Source: an uncultured Leptospirales bacterium
GTDB taxonomy: Bacteria; Spirochaetota; UBA4802; JAKQUI01
DNA: 64,000 bases
Reading direction: 5' to 3'
Assembly (NCBI GenBank): GCA_964652955.1
Contig: CAZZCF010000007.1
Span: forward strand, 1 to 64,000
The translations under genes were made by a program, and so were the position numbers. Below, piece after piece: positions 1,803 through 46,859 of the stretch; positions within the stretch are counted from its first letter, which is position 1; each line of letters opens with the position of its first letter. The notes below the pieces were generated by a model. It saw nothing but the letters and a program-made list of their open reading frames with translations, did not search any database and had not been told where the DNA came from.

Positions 1803-1816
1803 TGGTATTCCTCCTG

Positions 1817-3280: not shown

Positions 3281-3289
3281 TCTTCGCTC

Positions 3290-4573: not shown

Positions 4574-4618
4574 GTCTTCCTCCTCGTATACATTAATGTG
4601 GTTTGTAAACAGGTACGA

Positions 4619-5323: not shown

Positions 5324-8537
<3,214 letters not shown>

Positions 8538-8554
<17 letters not shown>

Positions 8555-9626: not shown

Positions 9627-10026
9627 TATACGCTGTCATCAACGGTGTAATCGGTGTACTCGTTTGCAGGATATTCCCTATCACTATAGCATCGTTGGAA
9701 GTTATTCACATTATTTTTTCATTCCCATCACATATGGTTTCCTGCTTGTTGCAGAATCGCCATACGCTTTTCAACATTAAATGGATAATGAAAGCATTTG
9801 CCATTACTTTTTTTGTTCTCCGATATTTTTAACATAACCGTAACATTTTCCGAATGAATAATTTTACCACCCCGTAACATTATTGAAGAATTTATTATTG
9901 AATCAGTGATCTGCTGAAGATACCTTTAGTAGTACTAACAGGAGCCTCTTATGAATTTTCGCCGAAAGAGCTTGAAGCGCACTCTTGACCGAGTGATGGA
10001 TTTCTCCCGGCGATGGGGAGTCGAGC

Positions 10027-13000: not shown

Positions 13001-14589
13001 CCCTGATCTCGCCGCCGCCGCATCACGATATCTACTCCATAGAGGACCTCGCCCAGCTCATCTTCGATCTGAAGAATGCGAATCCCGCCGCTGCCGTCAG
13101 CGTGAAACTGGTCTCTGAAACGGGTGTGGGAACCGTTGCCGCAGGCGTCGCGAAAGCCCACGCCGATCTCATTCTGATAAGCGGCTTTGAGGGGGGAACC
13201 GGAGCGAGTCCGCAGAGCTCGATAAAACACGCCGGATTGCCCTGGGAGATAGGTCTCGCCGAAACCCATCAGACTCTGGTTCTCAACGATCTGCGCGGCC
13301 GGGTCAGGCTGCAGACCGACGGGCAGCTCAAGACGGGCCGTGATATCGTTCTCGCCGGAATGCTCGGTGCAGAGGAGTTCGGCTTCGGAACCGCGGTGCT
13401 CATCGTGCTCGGCTGTCTGATGATGCGGAAATGTCACCTGAACACCTGTCCCGTCGGCGTCGCGACCCAGGACCCTGAGCTTCGGAAGCGGTTTGCCGGG
13501 AAACCGGAATATCTGATACAGTACCTCACCTTCATTGCCATGGAGGCGCGTGAAATTATGGCTCGCCTCGGCATTCGCACCTTCAACGAGATCATCGGGC
13601 GAACAGACCTCCTCTCGATTCGTCGGCTCGAACACGACAAGGCGAAAACCCTCGATCCTGCCGATCTCCTCTATCGGCCCGATAGTATGGAGGGGAGGGC
13701 AACCTCCTGTGTTCAGCCGCAGGTCCATCGGATTGAGCGGGTTCTCGACCGGGATCTTATCAAGCGATCGAGGGCCGCCCTCGAGGAAAAGAAGCCGGTC
13801 AAGATCGAATTCCCCATTGGGAATGTGGATAGGGCTGCAGGCGCCATGCTCTCCGGTGAGGTTTCGAAGCGCTACGGCGAACAGGGCCTGCCTGACGACA
13901 CTATTACCTGCGTGTTTCACGGGAGCGCCGGTCAGAGCTTCGGTGCATTTCTCGCGCGGGGGATTACCTTCCGGCTTGAGGGAGATGCGAATGACTATTT
14001 CGGCAAAGGGCTTTCCGGGGGGAGATTGATTGCCGTACCGCCCAGAGGGTCTCTCTTCGCACCTGAGGAAAATATCATTGTCGGGAACACCGTGCTCTAC
14101 GGCGCCACATCGGGTGAAGCATTCGTACGAGGAGTTGCCGGAGAGCGATTCGGTGTTCGCAACAGCGGTGCCGTTGCCGTCGTGGAGGGCACCGGTGATC
14201 ACTGCGCCGAGTATATGACCGGAGGACGAATTATCGTTCTCGGCAGGGTGGGCCGGAATTTCGCGGCAGGCATGAGCGGCGGCATCGCCTATGTGCTCAA
14301 CAAGGAGGGGACCTTCGAGTACTTCTGCAACAGGGGGATGGTTGAGTTAACGCCTATCCTCGAGTATGAGGATCAGGAGTTTGTGAAGGAACTGCTCACA
14401 CGTCATTACGAGTATACGGGGAGCACGGTTGCCCGGGAAATCCTCGACAACTGGCACCTGTACATGCCGAAGTTCATCAAGGTGATGCCGCTCGAATACA
14501 AGCGTGCCCTTCAGGAGATGAAACTGCAGCAGATCGAAGAGCAGCTTCGGGCAATTAGAGATGAGGAGCAGCTGGAGGTAATTTACTGA
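10027..14589 (+). CDS. gltB: Glutamate synthase large subunit (Ntn amidotransferase, FMN and GXGXG domains)
   Basis: 1520 aa. N-terminal CGIGF nucleophile region, central FMN/Fe-S domain, C-terminal GXGXG domain. The track start is a TTG. The true start may be the ATG at about 10039. Confidence 0.93.
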   Translation: MFRAMSMDGFMQGRVYRKGLYRSYYEHDSCGIGFVASIHGERSYDIIRRGLEVLERMEHRGAESADNRTGDGAGIMMQVPHLFYADEIPGLPEPGAYGTGMVFLPRDDRAADYCVSAIERVVRDEGYRIVAWREVPVDNSDIGEIARQSEPRMRQVFLSGNGEAGDILERKLYVIRKSIEREMHSADVEGVPPCYLPSLSSRTVVYKGMLMPSQVKSYFDDLQDLRLSSAIALVHSRFSTNTFPSWELAQPFRMIAHNGEINTIKGNRFWMQAREADFESELFGDDIDKIFPVIEPGMSDSASFDNALEMLVMTGRSLPHALMMLIPESWNEKNPLPDDLKHFYEYHATFMEPWDGPASMVFCDGRYVGGTLDRNGLRPSRFVITRDNIIVMGSEVGVQTFSPEEITAKGRLMPGKLLLIDTDEGRIIPDDEVKETIARQKPYKEWIERNRIRLSDIPAKVVPVALDDSRLHCLQLLHGYNREDIEKILMPMAGTGTEPTSSMGTDTPLAVFSDKPQLLFNYFKQVFAQVTNPAIDPIREELVMTLTSFIGKQGNLLAETADHCRRIKFRNPIFTNTDIVTVEQLDADAFRSIRLHCTFPVREGAAGLEEALERLCRDAEKRIDEGYGIIILSDKAVDSEQAPIPSLLSCAGVHHHLIRRKKRTRAGLIIETAEAREVMHFALLFGYGADAINPYGAFASIYHLLKRNKLAPGIDYLKAEENLIKAINKGILKVLSKMGISTLRSYRGSQIFEAVGLGRELVDRYFTGTESRIGGIGLEEIAREACMLHRRAYIEKPELLPSDGVYSYRRSGERHAWNPETIHLLQWATSTGDYERYREFARIVNEQNAEPRFIRGLFDFVPGSEIPLEEVEPVENICRRFTTGAMSFGSLSLEAHETIAIAMNSIHGRSNSGEGGENPERFVPRNDGTLSRSAIKQIASGRFGVTSNYLVNADEIQIKIAQGAKPGEGGQLPGYKVDGIIAQTRHSTPGVTLISPPPHHDIYSIEDLAQLIFDLKNANPAAAVSVKLVSETGVGTVAAGVAKAHADLILISGFEGGTGASPQSSIKHAGLPWEIGLAETHQTLVLNDLRGRVRLQTDGQLKTGRDIVLAGMLGAEEFGFGTAVLIVLGCLMMRKCHLNTCPVGVATQDPELRKRFAGKPEYLIQYLTFIAMEAREIMARLGIRTFNEIIGRTDLLSIRRLEHDKAKTLDPADLLYRPDSMEGRATSCVQPQVHRIERVLDRDLIKRSRAALEEKKPVKIEFPIGNVDRAAGAMLSGEVSKRYGEQGLPDDTITCVFHGSAGQSFGAFLARGITFRLEGDANDYFGKGLSGGRLIAVPPRGSLFAPEENIIVGNTVLYGATSGEAFVRGVAGERFGVRNSGAVAVVEGTGDHCAEYMTGGRIIVLGRVGRNFAAGMSGGIAYVLNKEGTFEYFCNRGMVELTPILEYEDQEFVKELLTRHYEYTGSTVAREILDNWHLYMPKFIKVMPLEYKRALQEMKLQQIEEQLRAIRDEEQLEVIY

Positions 14590-16007
14590 TGGGCAATCCG
14601 AGAGGGTTTCTGGAGATTGACAGGGAGGAGTCGGGATATCGTCCCGTCGAGGAGCGCCTGCATGATTACAGCGAGGTGGAGAAGCAGCTCCCCGATGAGC
14701 GGCGACGACAACAGGCTGCACGATGCATGGACTGCGGTGTTCCCTTCTGCCACTGGGCCTGTCCGCTCGAGAATAGTATGCCCGAATGGCAGGAGATGCT
14801 GTATCGGGGTGACTGGAAAGCTGCCTATGATATTCTGCAGGATACCGATAACTTTCCTGAATTTACGGGAAGGGTGTGCCCCGCGCTGTGCGAGGCTTCC
14901 TGTGTTCTCGCCGTGAACGGGGATGCCGTCACCATACGCCAGAATGAGCTGGCGGTGATTGAGAAGGCCTTCAGTGAAGGGTATGTGCAGCCCCGCCCGC
15001 CCGAGCGGAGGACCGGGAAGCGGGTTGCCGTCATCGGCAGCGGACCCGCCGGTCTCGCCTGCGCCGATATGCTGAACCGGTTCGGCCACACCGTGACGCT
15101 CTACGAGGCGGCGGATAGCGTGGGGGGATATCTCCGGTTCGGCATACCGGACTTCAAGCTCGAAAAGAGCATCATTGACCGTCGGGTGAATATTCTCAGG
15201 GAAGAGGGATTGATAATCAGAACCGGGGTGCGGGTTGGCACGGACTGCTCGGCTGCCGATGTTCGGAAAGAGAACGATGCGATCTGCATCGCGATTGGAG
15301 CACGTGAACCGCGTGACCTGCCGGCGGAGGGAAGAGATCTCACCGGCATACATTTTGCCCTGGAGTACCTTGTGCAGCAGAACAGGATCGTTCGCGGCGA
15401 TTTGATCCCCGAAGCGGCGCTCATCAAAGCATTCGACAAGGATGTTGTTGTGATAGGCGGTGGTGATACCGGTGCTGATTGTGTCGGCTCATTGAACCGG
15501 CAGGGCGCTCGAAGCGTCGTGCAGCTCGAGATCCTGCCGCAGCCGCCGGAGAGGAGGAGTGGGGATGAGCCGTGGCCACTCTGGCCAAAAATTCTGCGGT
15601 ATTCGAGCTCGCATGAGGAGGGATGCGATCGGATGTGGAGCGTGCTCGTCAAGCGGTTCTTCGGTACGGACGGTGCGGTGACGGGCATCTCCGCCGCGAG
15701 CGTTGCCCGGGAAAGCGAGGACGGAAAGATAATCATGCGCGAGATTGCCGGCTCCTCCTTCGACCTGAAGGCCGATCTCGTCATTCTGGCCATGGGATTT
15801 ATCCATGTGGTTCACGAGGGTCTGGTTGCCGATCTCGGCGTTCATCTCGATTCCCGCGGGAACATTGCTACCGATGAGAACTGCATGACCGGTGTCGAGG
15901 GAATCTTCGCCGCCGGCGACTCGGTCCGCGGCGCTTCGCTCGTGGTATGGGCGATTCAGCAGGGGCGGGAAACCGCCCGCGCCATTGACCGGTATCTGAA
16001 CACATAG
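14589..16007 (+). CDS. gltD: Glutamate synthase small subunit (NADPH-dependent, Fe-S/FAD)
   Basis: 472 aa. Cys-rich Fe-S motifs (CMDCGVPFC, CPALCEASC) and two Rossmann GxGxxG motifs (VIGSGPAG, VIGGGDTG). TGATG overlap with the gltB stop. Confidence 0.92.
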   Translation: MGNPRGFLEIDREESGYRPVEERLHDYSEVEKQLPDERRRQQAARCMDCGVPFCHWACPLENSMPEWQEMLYRGDWKAAYDILQDTDNFPEFTGRVCPALCEASCVLAVNGDAVTIRQNELAVIEKAFSEGYVQPRPPERRTGKRVAVIGSGPAGLACADMLNRFGHTVTLYEAADSVGGYLRFGIPDFKLEKSIIDRRVNILREEGLIIRTGVRVGTDCSAADVRKENDAICIAIGAREPRDLPAEGRDLTGIHFALEYLVQQNRIVRGDLIPEAALIKAFDKDVVVIGGGDTGADCVGSLNRQGARSVVQLEILPQPPERRSGDEPWPLWPKILRYSSSHEEGCDRMWSVLVKRFFGTDGAVTGISAASVARESEDGKIIMREIAGSSFDLKADLVILAMGFIHVVHEGLVADLGVHLDSRGNIATDENCMTGVEGIFAAGDSVRGASLVVWAIQQGRETARAIDRYLNT

Positions 16008-21322: not shown

Positions 21323-23035
21323 ATGATTTCAGTGGAGAGCGAGATACTCGAAACGGTAAAGGCAATGGCTGATCTGCTCATTGATGAGATGCGAGAGGAG
21401 GATGGTGCCGTCTTCTGTTCCCAGTGCGGCATCGCTCACGGGAGATCACCCGAATCAATTTTCCCCTTCGCATTTCTCTATCGGGAAACAGGTAAGCAGA
21501 ACTATCGAGACGCAGCGCTCGCCTGCGGGGGATGGCTTGTCAGAAATCAGATGCCCGATGGCTCATGGCACAACGAGCAATCGGTGAAATGGCCGGGAAT
21601 TACCGTTTTTAATCTCCTTGCGCTGCTGGGAGCGATTGATCTTTTACAGGAATGCGTTGACTGTTCACCGCTCAGATCGGCATCACTGAAGGCGGCACGC
21701 TGGGTTGAAGGGGCAATTGATCGGGGATATGCCAATATCAATTATCCGATAACAGCCATGGCCGTGCTGGCGCTGGCGGCTCAGATACTGGGGGTCCCGT
21801 CATTCTCTCATTCCGCAGGGAGGCTCCGTGACGACTGCATCGAGATATTTACCGGAGAAGGCTTTATTCACGGTGAGGGGAATGCGTACCCGTCGGTAGA
21901 TATCGGGTATAATTTTGATATGTCTCTCGGAATGCTCGCTCTCTTCGCACGATTGACCGATGATGAACGGGTGCTTGCTTTGGCCCTGCGGTCAACAGGA
22001 ACCCATCTGGAATTCCTCTATCCGGATGGCTCCCTTGACAACTCCTTTGGCACCCGCTCGTACAAGTGGACTCTCTTTGGTTCGAAGACAGCTCACGCGA
22101 TGCAGATACCGCTGCTTCTCCTCGCCGATAGGGATCAGCGATTCTCGCTGGCAGCGGTGCGAAATCTCCGGTACTTGAACCGGATACGGCAGGGCGGTTT
22201 CATCCCGACCGGTCCTGCACGGTATGATAACCGGGTATGCATTCATGCAAGCTTTACCAGGATGACTGCGCTTTCGCAGGCGCTCTACTTTGCACGAAGG
22301 TTCAATATTGATATCACGGTTCATGAAGGTGCGCAACTGCCTTCCGAGCAGCACACGTCCCGCTTCTACGAAAATATCAATACCCTTCTCTACCGTGGGA
22401 GAGATTTTGTTGCCACGGTGGCCGGATACGGTGTTTCCTACTGGAACGGTCCTCTCAATCATCCCTCCGGTGGTTCCCTCTCCTACCTGTATCATCGACG
22501 AACCGGCCCCCTTCAGATCGGCAGCGTAAACGAATATATTCGGGAGGAGCCCTTCAACATGACAGAGATGCCACAGCGCGAGTCGATAACACCTCGCATT
22601 GAGCTCGTCAGTGATCCGCGCTGTTCCAATGTGTATTGCTCTGATTCAGCAATAACGCTGAAGGATAATACGGTGCATGTCGGAGGAGTGCTGCAGCGAG
22701 TTGAAGCCTCGTTCGCCTATTCCATAGAGTATCGCTTTGCTCGTGATATGCTCATAAAACGGTATAGGGTAGCGGGAGGTACGGGCATGTTTCGCATCAT
22801 TGAGCCGATCTTTGCTTATGATGATGATAGTGTCGAGAGGGGGGAGGGGATCATTCTAATAATGCAGCCGGAGAGAGTCGTCGAGGTGAAATGCGCGTCG
22901 GAGAACCGCCTGTTGCTCTCGGAGGGAAAAATCTGGTGCCCCTTCCCCGGTGTCTGGGCACATCGAATCGTTGTTGAGCCCCGGTCGGACGAGGTTTCAG
23001 TGGCTATTACGGTGCGCCTGAAAGATAAGTTTTAA
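21323..23035 (+). CDS. Hypothetical protein, possibly an (alpha/alpha)-toroid enzyme
   Basis: 570-aa ORF with no opposing genes. Weak resemblance (DGSWHNE, GW repeats) to six-hairpin or prenyltransferase-like repeats. Function not supported. Confidence 0.45.
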   Translation: MISVESEILETVKAMADLLIDEMREEDGAVFCSQCGIAHGRSPESIFPFAFLYRETGKQNYRDAALACGGWLVRNQMPDGSWHNEQSVKWPGITVFNLLALLGAIDLLQECVDCSPLRSASLKAARWVEGAIDRGYANINYPITAMAVLALAAQILGVPSFSHSAGRLRDDCIEIFTGEGFIHGEGNAYPSVDIGYNFDMSLGMLALFARLTDDERVLALALRSTGTHLEFLYPDGSLDNSFGTRSYKWTLFGSKTAHAMQIPLLLLADRDQRFSLAAVRNLRYLNRIRQGGFIPTGPARYDNRVCIHASFTRMTALSQALYFARRFNIDITVHEGAQLPSEQHTSRFYENINTLLYRGRDFVATVAGYGVSYWNGPLNHPSGGSLSYLYHRRTGPLQIGSVNEYIREEPFNMTEMPQRESITPRIELVSDPRCSNVYCSDSAITLKDNTVHVGGVLQRVEASFAYSIEYRFARDMLIKRYRVAGGTGMFRIIEPIFAYDDDSVERGEGIILIMQPERVVEVKCASENRLLLSEGKIWCPFPGVWAHRIVVEPRSDEVSVAITVRLKDKF

Positions 23036-36219: not shown

Positions 36220-36599
36220 TGGGAGCTGAAAATATATCGGTCATTAAGATGGGAGATACGCTCATGGTTACGGTTCCGGCCGATCCGGACGACGAGACGG
36301 TATCCGCGCTGCAGGAGCGGATTCTCGCGGCAATGGAGAAGCACGAGGCCAAGGGATTGATACTTGACTTATCCACCGTCGAGACGATGGATTCCTTTTT
36401 CGCGCGGATTGTGGCCGAGACCGCACAGATGGTTCAGCTCATGGGCGGCCGGACGGTGATCGCGGGGATGCGGGCGAGCGTTGCCATCACCACCACGCAG
36501 CTGGGGCTGACCCTGGGGAATGCCATGACCGCCCTCGACGTGGACTGGGCGCTCCTGATGCTCGTCAGGAAACCGGCCGGAGGCATTGGGGATGAATGA
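36219..36599 (+). CDS. rsbS: RsbS-like single-STAS anti-sigma-factor antagonist (stressosome scaffold)
   Basis: 126-aa STAS-only protein with the conserved phosphorylatable region (LILDLSTVETMDS). Translationally coupled (TAATG) to the preceding rsbR paralog. Confidence 0.82.
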   Translation: MGAENISVIKMGDTLMVTVPADPDDETVSALQERILAAMEKHEAKGLILDLSTVETMDSFFARIVAETAQMVQLMGGRTVIAGMRASVAITTTQLGLTLGNAMTALDVDWALLMLVRKPAGGIGDE

Positions 36600-37008
36600 C
36601 AACGAAAATCCGATTGGCGAGGTTCCAATTCAGAACGAGGGCGATATCGTATCGGCCCGTAAGGTCGCGAGAGAGGTGTCGCAAAAGCTCGGATTCGGCG
36701 TCACCGATGTCACCCGAATCGTGACTGCGGTCTCGGAGCTGGCGCGAAATATCTACCGCTTTGCCGGAACGGGGATAATGCGCTGGAGTGTCATGAACGA
36801 GGGTATTGTCGGTATTGAGCTCATATTCGAGGACAAGGGACCCGGCATCACCGATATTGAACAGGCTATGGGCTTGGGATTCACCAGCGGGCAGGGACTG
36901 GGGATGGGGCTTCCCGGAGCCAGGCGGCTCATGGATGAGCTGGAGATCGAGTCGCGGGTGGGAGTCGGCACCACGGTGACGGTGCGAAAGTGGCTCAAGA
37001 GAAAATAA
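36586..37008 (+). CDS. rsbT: RsbT-like GHKL serine kinase (switch protein)
   Basis: 140 aa. N-box SELARNIYRFAG, G1 DKGPGI, G2 GLGMGLPG. Overlaps the rsbS 3' end as in rsbRST operons. Confidence 0.82.
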   Translation: MGMNDNENPIGEVPIQNEGDIVSARKVAREVSQKLGFGVTDVTRIVTAVSELARNIYRFAGTGIMRWSVMNEGIVGIELIFEDKGPGITDIEQAMGLGFTSGQGLGMGLPGARRLMDELEIESRVGVGTTVTVRKWLKRK

Positions 37009-37009
37009 C

Positions 37010-38023
37010 GTGATTGATTCGGAACATTCCATACCGGTAACGCACACAGGCGATGTGAACAGAGCGCGCACGGCAGCAAGGGAAGCAGCCGTGAATATCG
37101 GTTTTGCCGAGAAGGAGGGGGAGGAGATCGCCCTGGTGACAAGCGAGCTCGCCACCAACCTCTGCAAGCATGCGAGGGGCGGCGTTCTGATCATCTCGGC
37201 AATCGGGGAAGGAACGAAGCGGGGGATTCAGGTTGAAACGTCCGACCGGGGGCCGGGAATAGCCGATGTCGACGATGCAATGACCAACGGCTTTTCCACA
37301 ACGGGGAGCCTCGGGTACGGGATTGGAACGGTTATCAGGCTCATGGATGAGGTTGCTGTCAGTTCCCTGGAGAAGGATGCCGGCACGAGGGTGATCTGCA
37401 AAAGATGGGTTCGCGATATGAGTGACGGGGTAAAGAGATGTCCGCTCGATTTCGGCGTTGCAATCCGTCCCCGTCCGGGGAGCAGCCTTAACGGCGATGC
37501 GTATGTAATCAGGAAGTGGAACGATTGTGCACTGGTCGGACTCATCGACGGTCTCGGGCACGGACAGTTTGCTCATCGTGCATCGCAGACGGCAAAGAAG
37601 TACATCGAGAGGCATTTCGAACAGCCGCTGCAGAATCTCTTTCTCGGGACGGCGCGGCAGTGCCGGTCAACGCGGGGAGTGGTGATGGCGCTTGCCCGTT
37701 TCGACTGGGAAGCAAAGCGGCTCACCTTCGCGAGCGTGGGGAATGTCGAGGTGCGGGTAGTAAATAGCCACGAGAAGTTTTCTTTTATTCAGCGGCGTGG
37801 CGTCATCGGTCTCAATGCGCCCGCTCCGGCGGTTACCGAGCACCGGTGGGAGGAGCACTATATTATGATTATGCATACGGATGGATTGAGAACGCGATGG
37901 CAGTGGAAGGATTTTCCGGAGCTCGTCGAGCAATCGGCAACCGAAGCAGCGCGTTTGTTTCTCCATAAGCTTGCAAAGGATATTGACGACGCAGCGGTTC
38001 TGGTGGTGAAGAGGAGAATATGA
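37010..38023 (+). CDS. Fusion protein: RsbW/RsbT-like GHKL kinase domain plus PP2C (SpoIIE-type) serine phosphatase domain
   Basis: 337 aa, GTG start. N-terminal GHKL motifs (SELATNLCKHARGG, DRGPGI, GYGIG). C-terminal PP2C metal-binding Asp motifs (GDAYVI, DGLGHG, MHTDGL). Confidence 0.78.
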   Translation: MIDSEHSIPVTHTGDVNRARTAAREAAVNIGFAEKEGEEIALVTSELATNLCKHARGGVLIISAIGEGTKRGIQVETSDRGPGIADVDDAMTNGFSTTGSLGYGIGTVIRLMDEVAVSSLEKDAGTRVICKRWVRDMSDGVKRCPLDFGVAIRPRPGSSLNGDAYVIRKWNDCALVGLIDGLGHGQFAHRASQTAKKYIERHFEQPLQNLFLGTARQCRSTRGVVMALARFDWEAKRLTFASVGNVEVRVVNSHEKFSFIQRRGVIGLNAPAPAVTEHRWEEHYIMIMHTDGLRTRWQWKDFPELVEQSATEAARLFLHKLAKDIDDAAVLVVKRRI

Positions 38024-38880
38024 AACAGGAGGAATTGCAGAAAAAGCTTGATAAGGCCTTGAGAACAATTCAGTCGCTTCAAGGTGAGCTCAGAGAGACC
38101 AATCAGGGCGTCATAGCACTCAACCTTGAGCTGGAGCAGCGGGTTGAGGAGAAGGAGAGGGCGGAGGAAGCGCTCCAGGATGCAAACAAGGAGCTCGAAG
38201 CCTTCAGCTACTCGGTATCGCATGACCTCCGGGCGCCGCTGCGTGCCATTGACGGCTTCGCCAATATACTCCTCGAGGAGTACAATGATGTGCTCGATGA
38301 TGAGGGGAAACGATTAATCGGTATAATTATGAAAAACGTCAATTCGATGGGGCAGCTCATCGACGATCTCCTGGCTTTCTCCCGGTTGAGCCGTCAGCAG
38401 ATGCAGCGTTTGGTGATAGACGTGCGACCGCTGGTTCAGGAGGTTGTCGACAATCTCATGCAGAGTGAAAATAACCGAAATATCGAATGGAAGATCGACG
38501 CGCTCCCCCCGGTGATCGGCGATCGCTCCATGATCCGGCAGGTCTACGCCAATCTCCTCTCCAACGCGATCAAGTTCACCCGGAAGCGGGATATCGCCCG
38601 CATCGAGGTGGGAGCACGTAAATGTGATGAGGAGATTGTCTATTTTGTACGGGATAACGGTGCGGGATTCGATATGCAGTATCAAGAGAAGCTCTTTGTC
38701 GTTTTCCAGCGGCTGCACAGCGAGAAGGATTTCGAGGGGACCGGTGTCGGTATGGCCAACGTCAGGCGCATCGTTCACCGGCACGGGGGACGGATCTGGG
38801 CGGAGGGGAAGGTCGGCGAGGGCGCGACTTTTTATTTTACCATTCCACCCGAGGAGGGAACCGATGAAATATCCCGATGA
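38020..38880 (+). CDS. Soluble histidine kinase (N-terminal coiled-coil, HisKA, HATPase_c). No sensor domain.
   Basis: 286 aa. About 60-aa coiled-coil, then H-box SHDLRAPL and GHKL motifs (DNGAGFD, GTGVGMA). ATGA overlap with the upstream gene. Confidence 0.85.
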   Translation: MKQEELQKKLDKALRTIQSLQGELRETNQGVIALNLELEQRVEEKERAEEALQDANKELEAFSYSVSHDLRAPLRAIDGFANILLEEYNDVLDDEGKRLIGIIMKNVNSMGQLIDDLLAFSRLSRQQMQRLVIDVRPLVQEVVDNLMQSENNRNIEWKIDALPPVIGDRSMIRQVYANLLSNAIKFTRKRDIARIEVGARKCDEEIVYFVRDNGAGFDMQYQEKLFVVFQRLHSEKDFEGTGVGMANVRRIVHRHGGRIWAEGKVGEGATFYFTIPPEEGTDEISR

Positions 38881-39396
38881 AGTTGGGAGTCTCCCCGTCG
38901 AAGTCCTGACCGGCGAGGTCAAAGTCGCCGCTGTTGGAGTCCTCCGCGCCAGCGCGTTGGGTTCATGCGTTGCGGTTGCGATGCTCGATGTTGAGGCCGG
39001 GATCGGCGGTCTTGCGCACGTGATGCTGCCGGGGTCCTCACCCGGTTACCGGGATGCAAAAGGAACGAAGTACGCCGAGGACGGGATACGCGAATTGATT
39101 CACTCCATGACGGCGCAGGGTGCGCGGCTCGAAAGTCTCGTGGCCTGTGTGTTGTCGGCGGCGGCAACATCCTCGAGCGTTATGACGACACGATCTGCGA
39201 GGCGAATATCAGGTCGGTTACCAAGGTTCTCGCAGGGATGGGCATTCGGATAATGGCCTGCGAGGTGGGTGGCTCCCAACGAAGGAGCGTTTCCCTCGAC
39301 GTGGAGTCCGCTCGTGTTTCCTGCACGGTCGGGGACTCGGCCTCGAAGCTGCTATGGCAAGGCCGGGGCGAGCGAGAGGAGGATGTCAACTCATGA
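38864..39396 (+). pseudogene. cheD: cheD (chemoreceptor glutamine deamidase) with an apparent single-base frameshift near 39148-39155
   Basis: Starts at MKYPDEV (GAGGAGG RBS) with the CheD core LGSCVAVAMLD...GGLAHVMLPG. After ...LVACV the reading frame shifts. The conserved continuation VGGGNILERYDD...ACEVGGSQRRSVSLDVESARV runs in the other frame to a TGA overlapping the next gene's ATG. Confidence 0.65.
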
Positions 39397-42092
39397 AGCG
39401 AAGGACAAAAGCGGATATACAACGAGAGAAGGGAGAGTTCCGCCAGCGCAGCACCGAACTGGAGTGCTCGGAGGACGGTACGTCGGAGAGCGGCAAGCTG
39501 GCGGCGGAGGTGAAAATCAAGGAAGCCCAGTATCGCGGGGTATTCGAGGCATCGAAAGACACTATCCTCATTTTCGATCTCGACGGCGTGATCAAAGAGG
39601 TCAATCCCGCCGCCTGCGACATGTATGGCTACTCGCACGGGGAGATGGTCGGACTCACCGGGAGGGACATTGTGCATCACGACTATCACCACTTGTTCAA
39701 GGAATTCGTTGCGAAAGCAGGGGCGGGCGAGCTGTTTGCCGCCGAGTCGGTTGATCTTCGGAAAGACGGTTCACAATTTGACATAGAGGTCAGAGGAAGT
39801 GGTTTCGAGTATATGGGCCGCCCTCATCTTCTCGCCATCGTTCGTGACATCACTGAGCGCAAGCAGATGGCGAAGGGCCTCCGGCGCATGGCGACGGTGG
39901 TGAGAGACTCCAACGACGCGATCACGATCCAGGACTTCGAGGGTAGGATCACGGACTGGAACCACGGCGCCGAGCTGATGTACGGCTATTCTGAGGAAGA
40001 GGCGTTCCAGTCGAACATCGATCGTCTGACGATTCCCGCCAAGGTTGCAGAGCAGAATGCTTTCATCCAACGGTTGGCGGCGGGCGAAGACGTCACGTCG
40101 TTCGAGACCCAGCGGGTGACCAAGGACGGGCGCGTCCTCGATGTCTGGATGACCGTCACCAAGCTGATGGACGATGCCGGCAAGCCGATTGGCCTGGCCT
40201 CCACCGAGCGCGACATCACCGAGCGCAAGCGGGCCGAGGCGGCGCGCGACGCTGCCTACCAGCAGCTCCTTAAGGCGGAACGAGATCTCTCAATCAGAAA
40301 CAAGATCAACGAGATATGCCTGACCATATCCGACGAGGAGATGTACGGCGAGATTCTGAAGGTCGTCTTGGAGCAGTTGAAGAGCAAGTACGGGACCTTT
40401 GGATGCCTCGAAGAGGACGGCTCACTGGTCGTCCCTTCCATGACCAGGGACGTCTGGGATCAATGCCGAGTTCCGCAAAAGGACATTATCTTCCCAAGAG
40501 ACAAATGGGGAAACAGCATCTGGTGCCGGGCGATCCTGGAGAAGAAGACCCTTCATTCAAATGAGCCGTCATACGTTCCAGAAGGGCACATCCCCATCCT
40601 TCGCAACATATCTGTACCCATCACATATGAGGGCAAAGCAATCGGCCTGTTCCAGGTCGCCAACAAGGATGCGGATTACGACGAAAACGACATCCAGATT
40701 CTCGAAACTATCGCCGGATTCGTAGCGCCGGTTCTAAATGCCAGGCTGCAAAGAGACAGGGAACTGCGGGAGCGCGAAAGAGCCGAAGAAGCGCTCAAGG
40801 CGTCAAACCAACAACTGGTGGCCAGCGAGCAGCAGCTCCGAGCAGCAAATCAGCAATTAGATGCCGGCAACCAGCAGCTCAGGGCCACCGAGCAGCAGCT
40901 TCGCGCGTCGAATCAGCAACTGGAGGCGAGCAATCAGCAGCTCCGGGCAACCGAGCGAGAGCTTCGGCAAAGCGAGCAGTTCATCAGGGCGGTGTTGGAC
41001 AACCTTCCTGTCGGCGTCGCTGTGAACTCGGTAGATCCCGCCGTGGCGTTCAGCTATATGAACGACAGCTTCCCAAGGATATACCGCACCACCAGAGAGG
41101 CGCTCGCCGACCGGGATGCCTTCTGGGAGGCGGTATATGAAGACCCCGTGTTCCGGGCGGAGATCAGGAAGAGGGTGCTGGAGGACTGCGCAAGCGGAGA
41201 CCCGGGAAGCATGAGATGGGAAGACGTCCCGATAACGCGCGAGGGGCAGGAGACTTCCTTCATTTTCGCGCGCAACATACCGGTTGCCGGAAAGGACCTG
41301 GCGATATCCATGGTATGGGATGTGACCGAGCGCAAGCGCGCGGAGGAAGAGCTCAGAAGACACCGCGATAATCTCGAAGAGCTGGTCGCGGAGCGCACCG
41401 TAGAGCTCGAGGCCTTCAGCTACTCGGTATCGCATGATCTCCGGACGCCGCTGCGGGCCATCGACGGCTTCGCAAATATTCTCCTCGAGGAGCACAACGA
41501 TGCGCTCGAAGAAGAGGGAAAACGGCTGCTCGGCATTATAATGAAGAATGTCAATTCAATGGGACAGCTCATCGACGATCTCCTGTCCTTCTCCCGGCTG
41601 GGCCGGCAGGAGATGAAGCGTATGGAGATTGACGTGCGGGCGCTGGTTCGGGAGGTTATCGACAATCTCATGCAGAGTGAGAATAATCGTAATATCGAAT
41701 GGAAGATCGACACGCTCCCTTCAATGATCGGCGATCGCTCGATGATACGGCAGGTCTACGCCAATCTCCTCTCCAACGCGATCAAGTTCACCCGGAAGCG
41801 GGATGCCGCGCGCGTCGAGGTAAGTTCCCGGGAGATCGACGAAGCAATTGTCTATTTCGTGCGGGATAACGGCGCTGGCTTCGATATGCAGTACGCGGAG
41901 AAGCTCTTCGGCGTCTTCCAGCGGCTGCACAGCGAGAAGGAGTTCGAGGGGACCGGGGTCGGCCTTGCCAATGTCAGGCGCATCGTTCACCGGCACGGGG
42001 GCAGGATCTGGGCCGAGGGGAAGGTCGGCGAGGGCGCGACTTTTTATTTTACCATTATGCATGAGGAGGGAACCGATGAAATATCCCGATGA
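39393..42092 (+). CDS. Cytoplasmic multi-sensor histidine kinase: PAS-PAS-GAF, heptad-repeat coiled-coil, PAS, HisKA, HATPase_c
   Basis: Start chosen at MKRRTKAD (AGGAGG RBS; track ORF starts at 39354). Two PAS (DITERK linkers), a GAF-like block, eight 7-aa repeats (A-x-N/E-Q-Q-L-R), a further PAS, and a kinase core paralogous to 38020..38880. Confidence 0.85.
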
Positions 42093-42519
42093 AGTCGAGA
42101 TTCTTCTCGTCGAGGACAAGGAGGAGGACGTGGAGCTCACTCTGCGGGCGCTGCGAAAGAACAACCTGGCGAACCGGGTGCACGTGGTTTCGGACGGCCA
42201 GGAGGCGATTGATTTCATCTTTGGGAAGGGAGCATACAGTGGGAGAGATATCAACCATACACCGAGGGTTATTCTCCTCGACCTGAAGCTTCCCAGGGTG
42301 AGCGGCCTTGAGGTGCTTCAGAGGATCAAGTCTGATGAACGGACAAAGGTGATACCGGTGGTGATGCTCACCTCCTCCAAAGAAGAGCAGGATATCGTCG
42401 AGAGCTACCGGCTGGGGGTGAACAGCTACATCGTCAAGCCGGTGAGCTTCAACGATTTCGTGAAGGCGGTTACCGACCTGGGCCTGTACTGGATGCTGCT
42501 CAATAAGCCGGCATTCTAG
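42076..42519 (+). CDS. Single-domain response regulator (REC only)
   Basis: 147 aa. Starts [18 protein letters not shown]. Acceptor in VILLDLKLP. Conserved K in IVKP. Overlaps the kinase 3' end. Confidence 0.82.
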
Positions 42520-42529
42520 GAATGTAAAT

Positions 42530-43936
42530 ATGATGAGCGAAGCAGCAAGAGATCTGCATATACTGATGCTCGAGGACAGCGAGGCCGACGCCGAGCTCAT
42601 AATCAATGAGATGCGAAAGGGCGCTCTCGCCTTTACGTACCAAAGGGTGGAGACGCGGGAGAAGTATCTCGCGGCAATTGAAAAGTATATGCCCGACATG
42701 ATTCTCTCGGACAACAGCCTTCCCGCTTTCGACGGCCTGTCGGCGCTCAGTATTGCGCAGGAAAAATGCCCCGAGGTCCCCTTCATCTTCGTCTCCGGGA
42801 CCATCGGCGAGGAGGTGGCCATAGAAACGCTGAAAGCCGGCGCGACCGATTACGTCATCAAGGACAGGCTCTCGCGGCTTGTTCCGGTAATAGAACGAGC
42901 ACTGAGGGAGGTGGAGGAGCGGCGGGAGAAGAGGCGGGCCGAGCAGCTCCTTTTGGAGAGCGAAAAGCGGTACCGGAGCCTCTACGAGGATGCGCCCATC
43001 GCCTACTTCACCATCGGCAGTGATCGCTCCATACGGCAGGCGAACAGCGCGGCAACTAGGCTTCTCGGCTATTCGAAGGACGAGCTTCTCCGTATGGAAT
43101 TATTTGATCTCTATTCCGACAATCCCGAGGGATTGTCCCGGGCGCGGAGCCACTTCGAGCGGTTTCTCCGGGGAGAGAATATCGACGACGAGGAGCTCAT
43201 GATGCGGAAAAGCGACGGCGAGCCGGTCTGGGTGAGCCTCGCCGTCCGTCCCGTCAGGGACGATCGGGGAGCCGTCGTGGAATCCCGATCCATGGCCATC
43301 GATATCACCGATCGGAAGCTGGCGCAGGAAGAGCTGGCAAAGAGCTTTGTCAAGCTCCGGAAGACCCTGAACGACACCATTTACGCCATGGCGCTCACCA
43401 TCGAGTCGCGGGACGCCTACACCGCCGGGCATCAGCAGAGGGTGGCCCATCTCGCGTGCGCCATTGCGGAGGAGCTGGGCATGCCGGCCGAGCAGATTGA
43501 GGGACTGCACATGGGCGCCATTGTCCACGATATCGGCAAGATCTCCATTCCCGCGCAGATTCTGAGCAAGCCGGGGAAGCTTCTCAAGGAGGAGTTCGAG
43601 ATAATTATCACCCACCCGCAGCAGGGATATGACATTCTCAAGGGGATTGATTTCCCCTGGCCGGTTGCGGAGATGGTGCTTCAGCATCACGAGCGGATAA
43701 ACGGCACCGGTTATCCCGGCGGGCTCAGGGATGGGGAAATACTCATTGAATCGAAGATACTCGCCGTCGCCGATGTGGTCGAGGCGATGTCCTCTCATCG
43801 TCCGTATCGTCCCAGCGTGGGTATCGTGAACGCCCTCGGGTACATTCAGATGAACAGCGGCGTTCTCTTTGATGCAGGAGTGGTCGGAGCCTGTGAGACT
43901 GTTTTCGAAAAGGGATTTGAATTTGAGGAGGGATAA
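42530..43936 (+). CDS. Response regulator with PAS and HD-GYP (c-di-GMP phosphodiesterase) domains
   Basis: 468 aa. REC (DMILSDNSLP), PAS, and HD-GYP with an intact HD (HQQRVAHL, VHDIGK) and GYP (HHERINGTGYPGGL). Confidence 0.85.
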   Translation: MMSEAARDLHILMLEDSEADAELIINEMRKGALAFTYQRVETREKYLAAIEKYMPDMILSDNSLPAFDGLSALSIAQEKCPEVPFIFVSGTIGEEVAIETLKAGATDYVIKDRLSRLVPVIERALREVEERREKRRAEQLLLESEKRYRSLYEDAPIAYFTIGSDRSIRQANSAATRLLGYSKDELLRMELFDLYSDNPEGLSRARSHFERFLRGENIDDEELMMRKSDGEPVWVSLAVRPVRDDRGAVVESRSMAIDITDRKLAQEELAKSFVKLRKTLNDTIYAMALTIESRDAYTAGHQQRVAHLACAIAEELGMPAEQIEGLHMGAIVHDIGKISIPAQILSKPGKLLKEEFEIIITHPQQGYDILKGIDFPWPVAEMVLQHHERINGTGYPGGLRDGEILIESKILAVADVVEAMSSHRPYRPSVGIVNALGYIQMNSGVLFDAGVVGACETVFEKGFEFEEG

Positions 43937-44153
43937 AGCGAATGCGACAGGATTTACAGGATAACGTGATATTAAGATATGGATTTTCAGAGATAATGGT
44001 AATATTTGGTAATATTGACGATAAACAGGGACGAATGGAGATAGTTATCGGTTATTTTTTACCTGTTACCCGTTACTCGTAACACATAATAATCGGCGTT
44101 AATCTGCAGTTATATTTTAAAAGTGTTACAAAAACTGATGCTGGGGTCTGGAG

Positions 44154-46859
44154 ATGACTGAAAAACTGAAGATTCTGATCCTTGAAGACAGTCCCGACGA
44201 CTGCGAGCTGATGGAGCGCGAGCTCAGGAAGGGGAAAATTTCCTTTGCCGCCACGCGCGTCGAGACGGAAGAGGATTATATCAGGGAGATCGAGAATAGT
44301 ACCCCCGATATTTTACTCGTTGATTACGCCCTTCCGAGCTTCGACGGGCTCTCGGCGTTGCGCATCTCGATGGAAAAGCGCCCCGGCGTGCCCTTCATCT
44401 TCGTCTCGGGAGTCATCGAGGAGGAGACAGCCATCGAGAGCCTGAAGGCGGGAGCCACCGACTACGTCTTTAAGCACCGGCTCTCCCGGCTGGTCCCCGT
44501 GGTGAAACGGGCGCTGCGGGAGGTCGAGGAGCGCGGGGAGCTGGAGCGTGCCGAGCGGGCGCTCAGGGATTCCGAGAGACGATACCGTGAGCTGGTGGAG
44601 AACATCAACGACGTGATATTCTCCCAGGACGCCGAGGGTCGCATTGTCTATATCAGCCCCGCCCTGGAGCGGATGAGCCAGTACAAAACCGAAGATATCA
44701 TCGGCAAATCCTTTATAGAGCTTGTTCACCCGGAGGATCTCCCCGGACTGATGGAGAGCTATACCCGAACCATGGAAGGGAGCCGGGAGCCGTGGGAATT
44801 CCGGATGTTCGACAAGGACGGCTCCGTTCGCTGGGTGCGGACATCGAGCAGGCCCCTGGTCAGGGATGGTGAGATTGCTGGTTTGCTGGGGATTTTGACC
44901 GACATCACCGAGCGTAAATTAGATGAAGAACGGATACGGCATCTCAACCTGGTGATTCGCTCGATCCGGAATGTCAATCAGCTCATCACCAAGGAGAAGG
45001 ATCGGGATAGACTGCTCCAGGGGGCCTGCGACAACCTGGTAGAGAACCGCGGGTATTATAAATGCTGGATTGCCCTTCTGGGCAGCGACGGACGGCTTCT
45101 GAAGCATAAGGAGGCCGGATGGGGGGATGCGCTTTCCCAGAAGATCGATATGGCCGAAAAGGGCAAACACGCCCTAATGGTCAGAAGGACGCTGGAGCAA
45201 CCGGGCGTCGCCGTTGTCATGGATCCCGCACGGGAGTGTTTCGACTGTCCCCTGTCAAGTTACTACGAAGAGGGAATGGCGGCGATGACCTCGCGACTTG
45301 AGTACGAGGGGACGGTGTACGGTCTCATCAGCGTTACCATTCCTGCAGCGATTGCCGTTGACGAAGAGGAACAGAGCCTTTTTCAGGAGGCTGCAGATGA
45401 CATCGCCTTCGCCCTCCATAACATCGAGATGGAGAAGGAGCGTGACGCCTCTCAACGGGATCTTGCCGAGCGTATCAAGGAGATGAGCTGTCTCTATCGG
45501 ATAAACGAGATAGGCCGGCGGGAAGATTACTCCATTGACGATTTTCTCCGGGAGACCGTCAGGATAATGCCGGACGGATGGCAGTTTCCGGAGTTGACCG
45601 GCTGCCGCATCGTCTTTGAGGGGAAAGAATATAGAACAGATAATTTCAGGGAAACCGAGTGGAAGCAGGAAGACGATATAATCATCAACAGGGAGCGGGC
45701 GGGGAAGATCGAGGTGTGTCTCCTGGAGCCTCCTCACGCGGACGAGGAGCCCTTTCTCCATGGTGAAGAAGAGCTCATCGGGGCAATCGCCTTCACCCAT
45801 GCCGTCATCATCCATCAGTGGCAGACGGTGGAAGCCCTCCGGAAGAGCGAGGAGAAATATCGGACCATTCTCGAGCAGATGGTGGAGGGATATTTTGAGA
45901 GCGATTTGAAAGGAAACATTACCTTTGTCAACAAATCGGTATGTGAAGCAATGGGATATGAGAAGGATGAGTTTATAGGCATGAATTACCGGCAGATCAC
46001 GGGCGAGACGAACGCGCAGAAGGTCTGGCAAGTGTACAACGACGTTTATCGCAGCGGGGAGCCTAAAAAGAACGCAGAGCACGATTTAATAAGAAAAAAC
46101 GGGAGCAGGATATCCGTTGAGGGATCCGTCGACTTGATTAGAGACCGGTCGTCGAATCCCATTGGTTTCAGAAGCGTCGTGCACGATGTCACCGATAGAA
46201 AGAAGGCCGAGGAGCAGATACGCCAGTCGCTGCGGGAGAAGGAGATCATGCTGCAGGAGATTCATCACCGGGTGAAGAACAACATGCAGATTATCTCCAG
46301 CATGCTGGGGCTTCAGAAGAAATACATCCGGGACGAACGGGATATCGAGCTCTTCAGAGACAGCCAGAGCCGCATTCGCTCCATGGCCCTGGTTCACGAG
46401 AAGCTCTATCGATCGAGGAATCTGGCGCGGATCGACTTTGCCGAATACACGAGGGATCTCGTCGATCAGCTGTTGCAGTTCTATAACGTAAAGAAGATGG
46501 ACATAGACTTCAAAATTGAATTTGAGAGCATATATTTCGGCGTTGACATCGCCATTCCCTGCGCCCTCATCATCAACGAGCTCGTCTCGAATTCGCTGAA
46601 ACACGCTTTCCCCGATGGTATGAAGGGGATACTATACGTTCATCTCACCAAAGATGGAGACATGTACCTTCTGACCGTGAGCGACAACGGTATCGGCTTC
46701 CCCAAAGGGATCGACTTTCAAAAAACCGAATCGCTCGGCCTGCAGCTCGTCGACGCCTTTGTCAGGCAGATCAAGGGGAGCATATCGCTTGAGCGGAAGG
46801 GAGGAACCTCTTTCAACATCGCGTTCAAGGATAAAAAAGCAGGAAAAGGTATTACATGA
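44154..46859 (+). CDS. Hybrid sensor kinase: REC, PAS, GAF, PAS, HisKA_2, HATPase_c
   Basis: 901 aa. REC paralogous to that of 42530. PAS domains, a central GAF-like region, H-box EIHHRVKNNMQIISSMLGL typical of HisKA_2/HWE-like kinases, and a C-terminal ATPase. Confidence 0.85.
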   Translation: MTEKLKILILEDSPDDCELMERELRKGKISFAATRVETEEDYIREIENSTPDILLVDYALPSFDGLSALRISMEKRPGVPFIFVSGVIEEETAIESLKAGATDYVFKHRLSRLVPVVKRALREVEERGELERAERALRDSERRYRELVENINDVIFSQDAEGRIVYISPALERMSQYKTEDIIGKSFIELVHPEDLPGLMESYTRTMEGSREPWEFRMFDKDGSVRWVRTSSRPLVRDGEIAGLLGILTDITERKLDEERIRHLNLVIRSIRNVNQLITKEKDRDRLLQGACDNLVENRGYYKCWIALLGSDGRLLKHKEAGWGDALSQKIDMAEKGKHALMVRRTLEQPGVAVVMDPARECFDCPLSSYYEEGMAAMTSRLEYEGTVYGLISVTIPAAIAVDEEEQSLFQEAADDIAFALHNIEMEKERDASQRDLAERIKEMSCLYRINEIGRREDYSIDDFLRETVRIMPDGWQFPELTGCRIVFEGKEYRTDNFRETEWKQEDDIIINRERAGKIEVCLLEPPHADEEPFLHGEEELIGAIAFTHAVIIHQWQTVEALRKSEEKYRTILEQMVEGYFESDLKGNITFVNKSVCEAMGYEKDEFIGMNYRQITGETNAQKVWQVYNDVYRSGEPKKNAEHDLIRKNGSRISVEGSVDLIRDRSSNPIGFRSVVHDVTDRKKAEEQIRQSLREKEIMLQEIHHRVKNNMQIISSMLGLQKKYIRDERDIELFRDSQSRIRSMALVHEKLYRSRNLARIDFAEYTRDLVDQLLQFYNVKKMDIDFKIEFESIYFGVDIAIPCALIINELVSNSLKHAFPDGMKGILYVHLTKDGDMYLLTVSDNGIGFPKGIDFQKTESLGLQLVDAFVRQIKGSISLERKGGTSFNIAFKDKKAGKGIT

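What the first reader, a model, noticed from the sequence alone, without database searches (positions are those of the whole stretch)
40800..40967. Eight perfect 21-nt tandem repeats encoding heptads A-x-(N/E)-Q-Q-L-R inside a sensor kinase
The repeats encode [49 protein letters not shown] and ATERELR. They are in-frame DNA repeats lying between the GAF region and the last PAS domain. A strict heptad with Leu at one position suggests an extended coiled-coil spacer or signalling helix. Its length could vary by repeat-number slippage. That would be a tunable or phase-variable linker in a signalling protein.
Basis: seen in the sequence. Interest (0 to 1): 0.55.

Follow-up and report, generated by a model that had tools for sequence, protein, structure and literature searches.

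The report
Polar heptad coiled-coil linker in kinase
A bacterial sensor kinase carries eight copies of a seven-residue motif (A-x-N/E-Q-Q-L-x) that form one long helical stalk between two sensor domains. The same unnamed module occurs in hundreds of signalling proteins from many phyla, and it is an old, protein-level repeat rather than a slippage-prone DNA repeat.

Summary
The eight heptads exist exactly where reported: aa 483-538 of a 912-aa PAS-PAS-GAF-[array]-PAS-HisKA-HATPase kinase, window 39354-42092 (+). They are not "perfect 21-nt repeats". The DNA units are only 38-86% identical (mean 60%), and the longest exact repeat is 12 nt. Synonymous codons match no more often than codon usage predicts.

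The array is an in-phase expansion of the ordinary PAS-type linker. It lies between RAEEALK and QSEQFIR and is part of one predicted 106-residue helix.

The same A-x-(N/E)-Q-Q-L-x array occurs in at least several hundred signalling proteins from more than ten phyla, with 3-21 heptads. It never breaks heptad phase (1205 of 1206 spacings). It is phase-locked to the S-helix ERT motif and to the phospho-accepting His, which puts Leu at position 'a'.

Copy number differs between diverged orthologues (0/6/8, 5/6, 6/7, 7/10). It is the same in the 96-97% identical orthologue pair examined (21 each).

Verdict: a coiled-coil signalling linker whose length changes slowly in whole heptads. It is not a phase-variable element. 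No curated family or paper was found for the motif. It is a new variant of a known kind, of moderate interest.

The parts
39354..42092 (+). Sensor histidine kinase gene, 912 aa. The JGI gene call starts at M14 and gives 899 aa (P0001).
   Evidence: ORF list and translation; Pfam and NCBIfam domains; identical protein on contig Ga0180431_10001624
39528..40232 (+). Two N-terminal PAS domains (aa 59-170 and 178-293)
   Evidence: Pfam PAS/PAS_9/PAS_4 hits; AF2 PAS folds with pLDDT about 90
40251..40271 (+). Single AAYQQLL heptad in the PAS2-to-GAF linker. It starts 13 residues after DIT, the same phase in which arrays start elsewhere.
   Evidence: Sequence; AAYQQL(Q/A/M) heads arrays in several other loci
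40335..40736 (+). GAF domain (aa 328-461)
   Evidence: Pfam GAF_2 E=2e-15
40683..41000 (+). One continuous predicted alpha-helix, aa 444-549 (106 residues, about 160 A). It runs from the last GAF helix through the array into the N-cap of the next PAS domain.
   Evidence: AF2 on aa 440-560: helix 5-110, pLDDT 91-98 in all five models. The full-length monomer model is helical too, but has a low-confidence break at aa 517-520.
40779..40799 (+). RAEEALK, the ordinary linker heptad immediately upstream of the array
   Evidence: Aligns with KRAEEKVR of the array-less relative L002 and with the DITERKxAEExLK consensus
40800..40967 (+). Eight heptads A-x-(N/E)-Q-Q-L-x (aa 483-538), 25% Gln. Inferred register: Leu=a, position 2 (S/A/T/G)=d, N/E=e, Q5=g, position 7=b, Ala1=c, Q4=f.
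   Evidence: register from phase-locking to ERT and the phospho-His in relatives
40968..40988 (+). QSEQFIR, the N-cap heptad of the third PAS domain. DNA homology to locus L002 (96.8%) starts here.
   Evidence: blastn match L002 to window 40965-42468; alignment
41001..41333 (+). Third PAS-like domain (aa 550-660)
   Evidence: NCBIfam sensory_box with 3 stretches; AF2 strands and helices of a PAS fold
41337..41423 (+). A separate, canonical S-helix with the ERT signature (aa 680-682, nt 41391-41399) leading into the DHp
   Evidence: Sequence [15 protein letters not shown]; S-helix definition in PMC1592074
41409..42056 (+). HisKA (aa 686-750, phospho-acceptor His694) and HATPase_c (aa 793-901)
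   Evidence: Pfam; invariant H694 in alignment A1

Best explanation
The eight heptads are an in-register expansion of the ordinary helical linker that joins sensor modules in PAS/GAF histidine kinases. Together with the last GAF helix and the N-cap of the next PAS domain they form one 106-residue helix. In the kinase homodimer this helix most likely pairs with its twin as a parallel two-stranded coiled coil. Leu would sit at 'a', a small Ser/Ala/Thr at 'd', and a polar Asn/Glu-Gln seam at e/g. Only whole heptads are ever added or lost, so the angular phase between the upstream PAS-PAS-GAF sensors and the downstream PAS-DHp-kinase is kept while the distance grows by about 84 A. Conformational signals (helix rotation, supercoiling or pivoting) would pass along this stalk. 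The array belongs to a widespread, so far unnamed module. Its sequence is held by purifying selection on the protein, and its copy number drifts slowly between species.

Shown: the sequence, the helix prediction, the phase invariance, the quantised linker lengths, the DNA divergence and the copy-number differences among orthologues.
Inferred: parallel dimer, a/d assignment, signal transmission.
For: - Helix: AF2 predicts a continuous helix over aa 444-549 with pLDDT 91-98.
- Exact insertion: a relative (L002) has a 96.8% identical downstream PAS-kinase but the linker KRAEEKVR|ESEDFIR with no array. The window has RAEEALK|8 heptads|QSEQFIR, an exact 56-residue insertion.
- Phase: 1205 of 1206 successive [NE]QQL motifs in 152 proteins are spaced by multiples of 7.
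- Linker length: the distance from DIT (PAS end) to SExxFR (next PAS N-cap) takes the values 7, 14 (the mode), 21 ... 91. That is 105 in phase against 5 out of phase.
- Register: in 8 of 8 arrays that run into a HisKA H-box, His minus Leu = 2 mod 7. In 4 of 4 arrays that follow an S-helix, Leu minus Arg(ERT) = 4 mod 7. With ERT at c,d,e (PMC1592074) this gives Leu = a.
- Context: carriers are mostly PAS and kinase proteins. Of 63 scanned, 48 have PAS and 39 have HATPase_c.
- Literature: heptad-periodic coiled-coil linkers of discrete length are established for sensor kinases and for linkers between sensor modules (PMC6798134).
- Selection: synonymous sites between units are randomised while five of seven residues are kept.
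- Copy number: orthologues differ by whole heptads, 5/6, 6/7, 7/10 and 6/8.
Against: - Only one large hydrophobic residue per heptad. The second core position is Ser/Ala/Thr/Gly, which is unusual for a stable two-stranded coiled coil.
- No dedicated coiled-coil predictor and no dimer model could be run.
- The full-length AF2 monomer breaks the helix at aa 517-520 with pLDDT below 50.
- The outward-facing positions c (Ala, 91%) and f (Gln, 89%) are as conserved as the core. A plain spacer does not explain this.
- The family statistics come from sequences picked by similarity to the motif, so the residue frequencies are partly circular. The phase tests are not.
Confidence: 0.7

Rival explanations
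1. The array is a contingency element. Slipped-strand mispairing of 21-nt repeats changes the heptad number at high frequency and gives a phase- or length-variable kinase within a population.
For: - The units are in frame and copy number does differ among homologues.
- A few arrays in other genomes carry exact repeats of 41-44 nt (L108, L087), so recent duplications do happen.
Against: - DNA units here are 60% identical on average and the longest exact repeat is 12 nt.
- Same-codon use is at or below the codon-usage expectation, 46 against 55-58.
- TRF finds no period-21 array.
- The 99.99% identical contig has eight units.
- Orthologues with 96-97% identical flanks have the same 21 units.
- Counts differ only between orthologues with about 40-83% identical flanks.
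Confidence: 0.04
2. Besides, or instead of, being a dimeric stalk, the array is a specific interaction surface. The conserved outward Ala/Gln face would mediate higher-order bundling of kinase dimers, or dock a partner protein, as the Gln-rich helical Q-linker of PpsR does for tetramer and octamer formation and for AppA binding.
For: - Positions c (Ala, 91%) and f (Gln, 89%) are as conserved as the core, although synonymous sites are saturated.
- E-type and N-type heptads follow a grammar. E is almost never next to E (6 cases against 172 NE, 151 EN and 82 NN). E-heptads carry R/K at position 7 in 84% of cases, against 40% for N-heptads.
- There is precedent in PpsR (PMC3949515).
Against: - No partner is identifiable.
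- The genomic neighbourhood is not conserved across the loci examined.
- The variable copy number (3-21) fits a spacer better than a defined docking site.
- Ala and Gln are also simply good helix formers and solubilisers.
Confidence: 0.2
3. The segment is a flexible, disordered Gln-rich tether (the classical Q-linker) that merely separates domains.
For: 25% Gln and 34% Gln+Asn; interdomain position.
Against: - Strict 7-residue period with Leu at every seventh position and no Pro.
- Confident helix prediction.
- Length quantised in sevens and phase-locked to the DHp His. A floppy tether would not need either.
Confidence: 0.03
4. The repeat number is an assembly artefact.
For: Repeats can be collapsed or expanded by short-read assemblers.
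Against: - The units are too different to confuse an assembler (longest exact repeat 12 nt).
- A separately assembled 31-kb contig matches window 36393-45092 with one mismatch in 8700 nt and has the same array.
Confidence: 0.01

Closest known systems
Heptad-periodic coiled-coil linkers of PAS/LOV/GAF sensor histidine kinases (YF1/FixL-type linkers; review PMC6798134)
   Same: A continuous helix joins sensor modules to each other and to the DHp. Linker lengths come in discrete steps of seven. The array keeps the phase relative to the phospho-accepting His.
   Different: Ordinary linkers are short (14 residues from DIT to SE is the mode here) and non-repetitive, with two hydrophobic core positions per heptad. 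This one is a tandem array of a nearly invariant polar heptad with a single Leu per heptad. The family ranges from 3 to 21 units.
Signalling helix (S-helix; Anantharaman, Balaji and Aravind 2006, PMC1592074)
   Same: A coiled-coil segment between signalling domains. The array is in register with it and sometimes directly follows it.
   Different: The S-helix is about 40 residues (five heptads) and is defined by an ERT signature in the central heptad. The array has no ERT and a variable length. This protein has its own separate S-helix at aa 662-690.
Q-linker of PpsR and NifL (PMC3949515, PMC10372690) and the classical Q-linker of bacterial regulators (from my own knowledge: Wootton and Drummond 1989)
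   Same: A Gln-rich interdomain segment next to PAS domains. In PpsR it is a long helix made by fusing a C-terminal extension with the next PAS N-cap, and it forms a coiled-coil-like dimer. The NifL Q-linker is predicted to be a parallel coiled coil.
   Different: Those linkers are single, non-repetitive and of fixed length. No sequence similarity was detected to any solved structure (best E=0.065). The array here is a strict tandem heptad repeat.
Ala/small-residue 'd' positions in tropomyosin-type coiled coils (from my own knowledge)
   Same: Leu at one core position and a small residue at the other.
   Different: This is an analogy of packing only. It was not tested and there is no homology.

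Membership tests
Coiled-coil inter-module linker of sensor histidine kinases | Continuous alpha-helix joining two signalling modules | tested here: met
   AF2 helix over aa 444-549, pLDDT 91-98
Coiled-coil inter-module linker of sensor histidine kinases | Unbroken heptad periodicity, with linker length quantised in sevens among relatives | tested here: met
   1205 of 1206 motif spacings are multiples of 7. DIT-to-SE distances are 105 in phase against 5 out. His minus Leu = 2 mod 7 in 8 of 8 arrays.
Coiled-coil inter-module linker of sensor histidine kinases | Hydrophobic residues at both a and d | tested here: inconclusive
   Leu 97% at the inferred 'a'. The inferred 'd' is Ser/Ala/Thr/Asn/Gly.
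Coiled-coil inter-module linker of sensor histidine kinases | Parallel homodimeric pairing | not testable with these tools
   Only monomer prediction is available. Pairing is inferred from the flanking PAS and DHp modules, which are dimeric.
S-helix (signalling helix) | ERT signature in the central heptad | tested here: not met
   There is no ERT within aa 483-538. The only ERT is at aa 680-682 in a separate helix. Definition from PMC1592074.
S-helix (signalling helix) | About 40 residues, five heptads | tested here: not met
   Eight heptads here and 3-21 in relatives
Classical Q-linker | Gln-rich interdomain segment | tested here: met
   25% Gln, between GAF and PAS
Classical Q-linker | Short (about 15-25 aa), non-periodic, flexible tether (definition from my own knowledge) | tested here: not met
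   56 aa, strict heptad period, confident helix
Phase-variable simple-sequence contingency locus | Perfect or near-perfect tandem DNA repeats | tested here: not met
   Units are 38-86% identical and the longest exact repeat is 12 nt. TRF finds no period-21 array.
Phase-variable simple-sequence contingency locus | Copy-number polymorphism among near-identical genomes | tested here: not met
   The 99.99% identical contig has the same count. L099 and L100, with 96-97% identical flanks, have the same 21 units. No read-level data were available.
Any curated protein family covering the segment (Pfam-A, NCBIfam) | Score above the family's curated cut-off | tested here: not met
   Best hits are generic coiled-coil families at 15-17 bits against cut-offs of 27 bits or more

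The most novel reading that the evidence does not exclude
The A-x-(N/E)-Q-Q-L-x array is a distinct, selected signalling device rather than a passive spacer. It would be a polar-seamed coiled coil with a single Leu per heptad, able to sit in two nearly equivalent packings: Leu at a with a small residue at d, or Leu rotated towards x with the Ser/Asn pair as a da layer. The whole stalk could then switch cooperatively and carry a rotary signal over 40-220 A whatever its length. Alternatively, its conserved outer Ala/Gln face bundles kinase dimers or docks a partner. The natural series of 3-21 heptads would be a ready-made test of how far a conformational signal travels along a coiled coil.
Probability: 0.2. 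Interest if true: 0.65.

Novelty: new variant of a known kind. Interest (0 to 1): 0.35.

Why it matters
How signals cross the long helical linkers of multi-sensor kinases is still debated. This module offers a natural length series of 3 to 21 identical heptads with fixed phase relative to the catalytic histidine. It spans many phyla and includes orthologue pairs that differ by one to three heptads. That makes the length dependence of signal transmission directly testable, and it could serve as a modular spacer for engineered sensors. For this window alone the practical result is a correction: the array is a stable, protein-level repeat and not a hypermutable site.

Tried and rejected
- Word-indexed protein search with the 81-aa segment gave only 15 short fragments. 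It missed proteins known to carry the array (P0006, P0027, P0087), probably because of composition correction. The exhaustive phmmer search was used instead.
- PDB sequence search found nothing significant (best E=0.065; designed coiled coils and MORC2).
- Literature searches for NQQL, for EQQLRA-type strings, and for Q-linker or glutamine-rich heptads in kinases found no description of the motif.
- The full-length AF2 monomer placed a break at aa 517-520 with pLDDT below 50. I treat it as a monomer-packing artefact because the isolated segment folds as one confident helix.
- The period-63 TRF signal was tested as a recent three-heptad duplication and rejected. Same-codon use at that lag is 14 against 12.5 expected.
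- The metagenome scan found no strain-level variant of this gene with a different unit count. It returned only the chimeric relative L002 and more distant orthologues.
- No COILS or MARCOIL predictor was available, so none was run.
- I did not determine the organism. The window also carries amt, glnA, carAB and gltBD, so it is chromosomal and bacterial.

Full report
**1. The observation**

Window 39354-42092 (+) is a 912-aa open reading frame. In its frame, nt 40800-40967 read [56 protein letters not shown], exactly as reported.

Pfam and NCBIfam give this architecture:

| Element | Residues |
|---|---|
| PAS | 59-170 |
| PAS | 178-293 |
| GAF | 328-461 |
| heptad array | 483-538 |
| third PAS-like domain | about 550-660 |
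| HisKA | 686-750 |
| HATPase_c | 793-901 |

Eight in-phase units are far beyond chance. In 20,000 shuffles of the protein, or of the linker segment alone, the longest in-phase run was 1-2.

The description "perfect 21-nt tandem repeats" is wrong.
- The eight DNA units share only 8-18 of 21 bases (mean 60%).
- The longest exact repeat is 12 nt.
- Tandem Repeats Finder sees no period-21 array. It reports only a period-63 array of 2.3 copies.

**2. The age of the repeat**

I compared codon pairs that encode the same amino acid in different units. The same codon is used 46 times out of 128. Local codon usage predicts 55-58. At the three-heptad lag the figures are 14 against 12.5 expected.

Over 83 arrays from other genomes the total is 3446 against 3322 expected. 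The median unit identity is 60%. Only a few arrays (L108, L087) hold exact repeats of 41-44 nt.

Synonymous sites between units are therefore saturated, while five of the seven residues are kept. The repeat is old and is maintained at the protein level.

A 31-kb JGI contig (Ga0180431_10001624) matches window 36393-45092 with one mismatch in 8700 nt and carries the same eight units. An assembly artefact is thus unlikely.

**3. What was inserted, and where**

Locus L002 comes from a sister sample. It matches window 40965-42468 at 96.8% DNA identity, and the match starts at the last codon of the array.

Its 1230-aa kinase has a different N-terminal half (REC and three PAS domains). Its linker is ordinary...DITDLKRAEEKVR|[14 protein letters not shown]. 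The window reads ...ERAEEALK|eight heptads|[14 protein letters not shown].

The array is therefore an exact 56-residue, eight-heptad insertion into a standard PAS-type linker. The module boundary used in domain shuffling coincides with its 3' end. A more distant orthologue of the downstream module (L003, 80% identical over the 150 aa downstream of the array) has six units.

**4. Structure**

AlphaFold2 folds aa 440-560 as a single helix spanning aa 444-549, with pLDDT 91-98 in all five models. That is 106 residues, about 160 A, of which the array contributes about 84 A.

The full-length monomer model is helical too. It places a low-confidence break (pLDDT below 50) at aa 517-520. I regard this as an artefact of modelling a monomer. 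No dimer model could be made.

**5. A widespread, unnamed module**

A scan of one genome per GTDB species found 61 loci. They lie in MAGs labelled as:
- Planctomycetota (including Brocadiaceae) and Bacteroidota
- Desulfobacterales-type delta-proteobacteria (Desulfobacula, Desulfotignum) and Syntrophales
- Victivallales and Kiritimatiellia
- Omnitrophota, Elusimicrobiota and Cloacimonadota
- Fidelibacterota, Thermotogota and Myxococcota
- Chitinivibrionales

An exhaustive phmmer search of 1.84 billion cluster representatives with the 70-aa segment gave 924 hits at E<=1e-3, 251 at <=1e-10 and 13 at <=1e-30. Of the top 148 proteins, 138 carry at least one array of three or more heptads, often two or three, of up to 17 units. 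Composite arrays of 21 or more units occur in Planctomycetota and Pirellulales MAGs (L099, L100, L114).

Carriers are signalling proteins. Of 63 scanned, 48 have PAS, 39 HATPase_c, 17 HisKA_3 and 15 HisKA. GAF, REC and HAMP also occur.

The consensus over 512 heptads is A(91%) - S/A/T - N(58%)/E(40%) - Q(89%) - Q(92%) - L(97%) - R/K/x. These frequencies are partly circular, because the arrays were found by the motif.

The heptads follow a grammar:
- E-type heptads carry R/K at position 7 in 84% of cases, against 40% for N-type. This fits an i,i+4 salt bridge.
- E-type heptads are almost never adjacent: 6 EE against 172 NE, 151 EN and 82 NN.

No Pfam or NCBIfam model reaches its cut-off on the segment. 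Only generic coiled-coil families score, at 15-17 bits. No solved structure matches. No paper in the searchable library mentions the motif in a kinase.

**6. Phase tests**

These tests do not depend on how the arrays were selected.
- Of 1206 successive [NE]QQL motifs lying within 42 residues of each other, 1205 are spaced by a multiple of seven. There are no stutters or stammers.
- The distance from the DIT motif at a PAS C-terminus to the SExx(F/Y)R of the next PAS N-cap takes the values 7, 14 (the mode, 56 cases), 21, 28 ... 91. That is 105 in phase against 5 out of phase.
- In all 8 distinct arrays that run straight into a HisKA H-box, the phospho-His lies 30, 44, 51 or 58 residues after the last array Leu, which is 2 mod 7.
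- In all 4 arrays that follow an S-helix, the first array Leu lies 4 mod 7 after the Arg of ERT.

The ERT residues occupy heptad positions c, d and e (PMC1592074). The array register is therefore Leu=a, position 2 (small)=d, N/E=e, Q5=g, position 7=b, Ala1=c and Q4=f. This assignment is an inference and assumes no phase break.

**7. Copy-number evolution**

Orthologue pairs with conserved flanks on both sides:

| Pair | Heptads | Flank identity (upstream / downstream) |
|---|---|---|
| L118 / L125 | 6 vs 7 | 58% / 80% |
| L102 / L104 | 5 vs 6 | 42% / 72% |
| L096 / L116 | 10 vs 7 | 70% / 83% |
| L109 / L111 | 7 vs 7 | 66% / 75% |
| L099 / L100 | 21 vs 21 | 96-97% |

Length therefore changes by whole heptads over evolutionary time, not at the strain level.

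**8. Interpretation**

The array is best read as a parallel coiled-coil stalk. It lengthens an ordinary sensor-to-sensor linker while keeping the heptad phase. This matches the principle established for YF1 and related kinases, where linker length acts with seven-residue periodicity and similar signatures recur between consecutive sensor modules (PMC6798134).

It is not an S-helix. It has no ERT and its length varies, and the protein has its own S-helix at aa 662-690.

It is not the flexible classical Q-linker either. The nearest described relatives in kind are the helical Gln-rich Q-linkers of PpsR and NifL (PMC3949515, PMC10372690).

Two things remain unexplained:
- There is only one large hydrophobic residue per heptad.
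- The outward positions c (Ala) and f (Gln) are strongly conserved.

These leave room for a second interface, a docking role, or two alternative packings of the helix.

**9. Verdict**

The coiled-coil reading is supported. The slippage or phase-variation reading is not. The motif family appears to be undescribed, but it is a variant of a well-known kind of signalling linker.

Noticed in passing
window 38191-38901 and 41403-42113: The kinase core (HisKA-HATPase) of the studied gene is duplicated at 86% DNA identity in a sensor-less 286-aa kinase ORF (38020-38880) just upstream.
   Followed up: partly
L002 3202-4705 vs window 40965-42468: A 1230-aa kinase from a sister sample shares the downstream PAS-HisKA-HATPase and the following REC gene at 96.8% DNA identity, but has an unrelated N-terminal half. 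The homology breakpoint lies exactly at the 3' end of the heptad array. This suggests domain shuffling at the linker.
   Followed up: partly
window 40251-40271: A solitary AAYQQLL heptad sits in the PAS2-to-GAF linker of the same protein, in the phase where arrays start. AAYQQL(Q/A/M) is also the first unit of arrays in several other genomes, so it may be a seed for expansion.
   Followed up: partly
window 27600-50616: A dense signalling island. It holds a REC-PASx5-GAF-HisKA_3 kinase (1300 aa) and a partner-switching set (PAS-STAS, STAS, RsbW-like kinase, HATPase_c_2-SpoIIE). It also holds two REC-PAS-HD(HD_5) proteins and two further REC-PAS kinases. Only the studied gene has the heptad array; the DIT-to-SE linkers seen in the 1300-aa kinase have the ordinary 14-residue spacing.
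   Followed up: partly
window 351-16007: A nitrogen-assimilation cluster: ammonium transporter, glutamine synthetase, carbamoyl-phosphate synthase small and large chains, and glutamate synthase large and small subunits. This shows the window is bacterial chromosome.
   Followed up: no
window 21323-23035: A 570-aa ORF with no Pfam match at E<=1e-5.
   Followed up: no
L083 and L084: Two MAGs labelled as different phyla (Bacteroidetes and Candidatus Desulfobacula maris) carry identical arrays and flanks. This points to a binning error or very recent transfer.
   Followed up: no
arrays in L082-L142 and P0136-P0283: Heptads come in two flavours with a grammar. E-type (A-S/T-E-Q-Q-L-R/K) is never next to another E-type and is usually flanked by N-type. 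Many arrays alternate strictly (14-residue period) or as N-N-E (21-residue period).
   Followed up: partly
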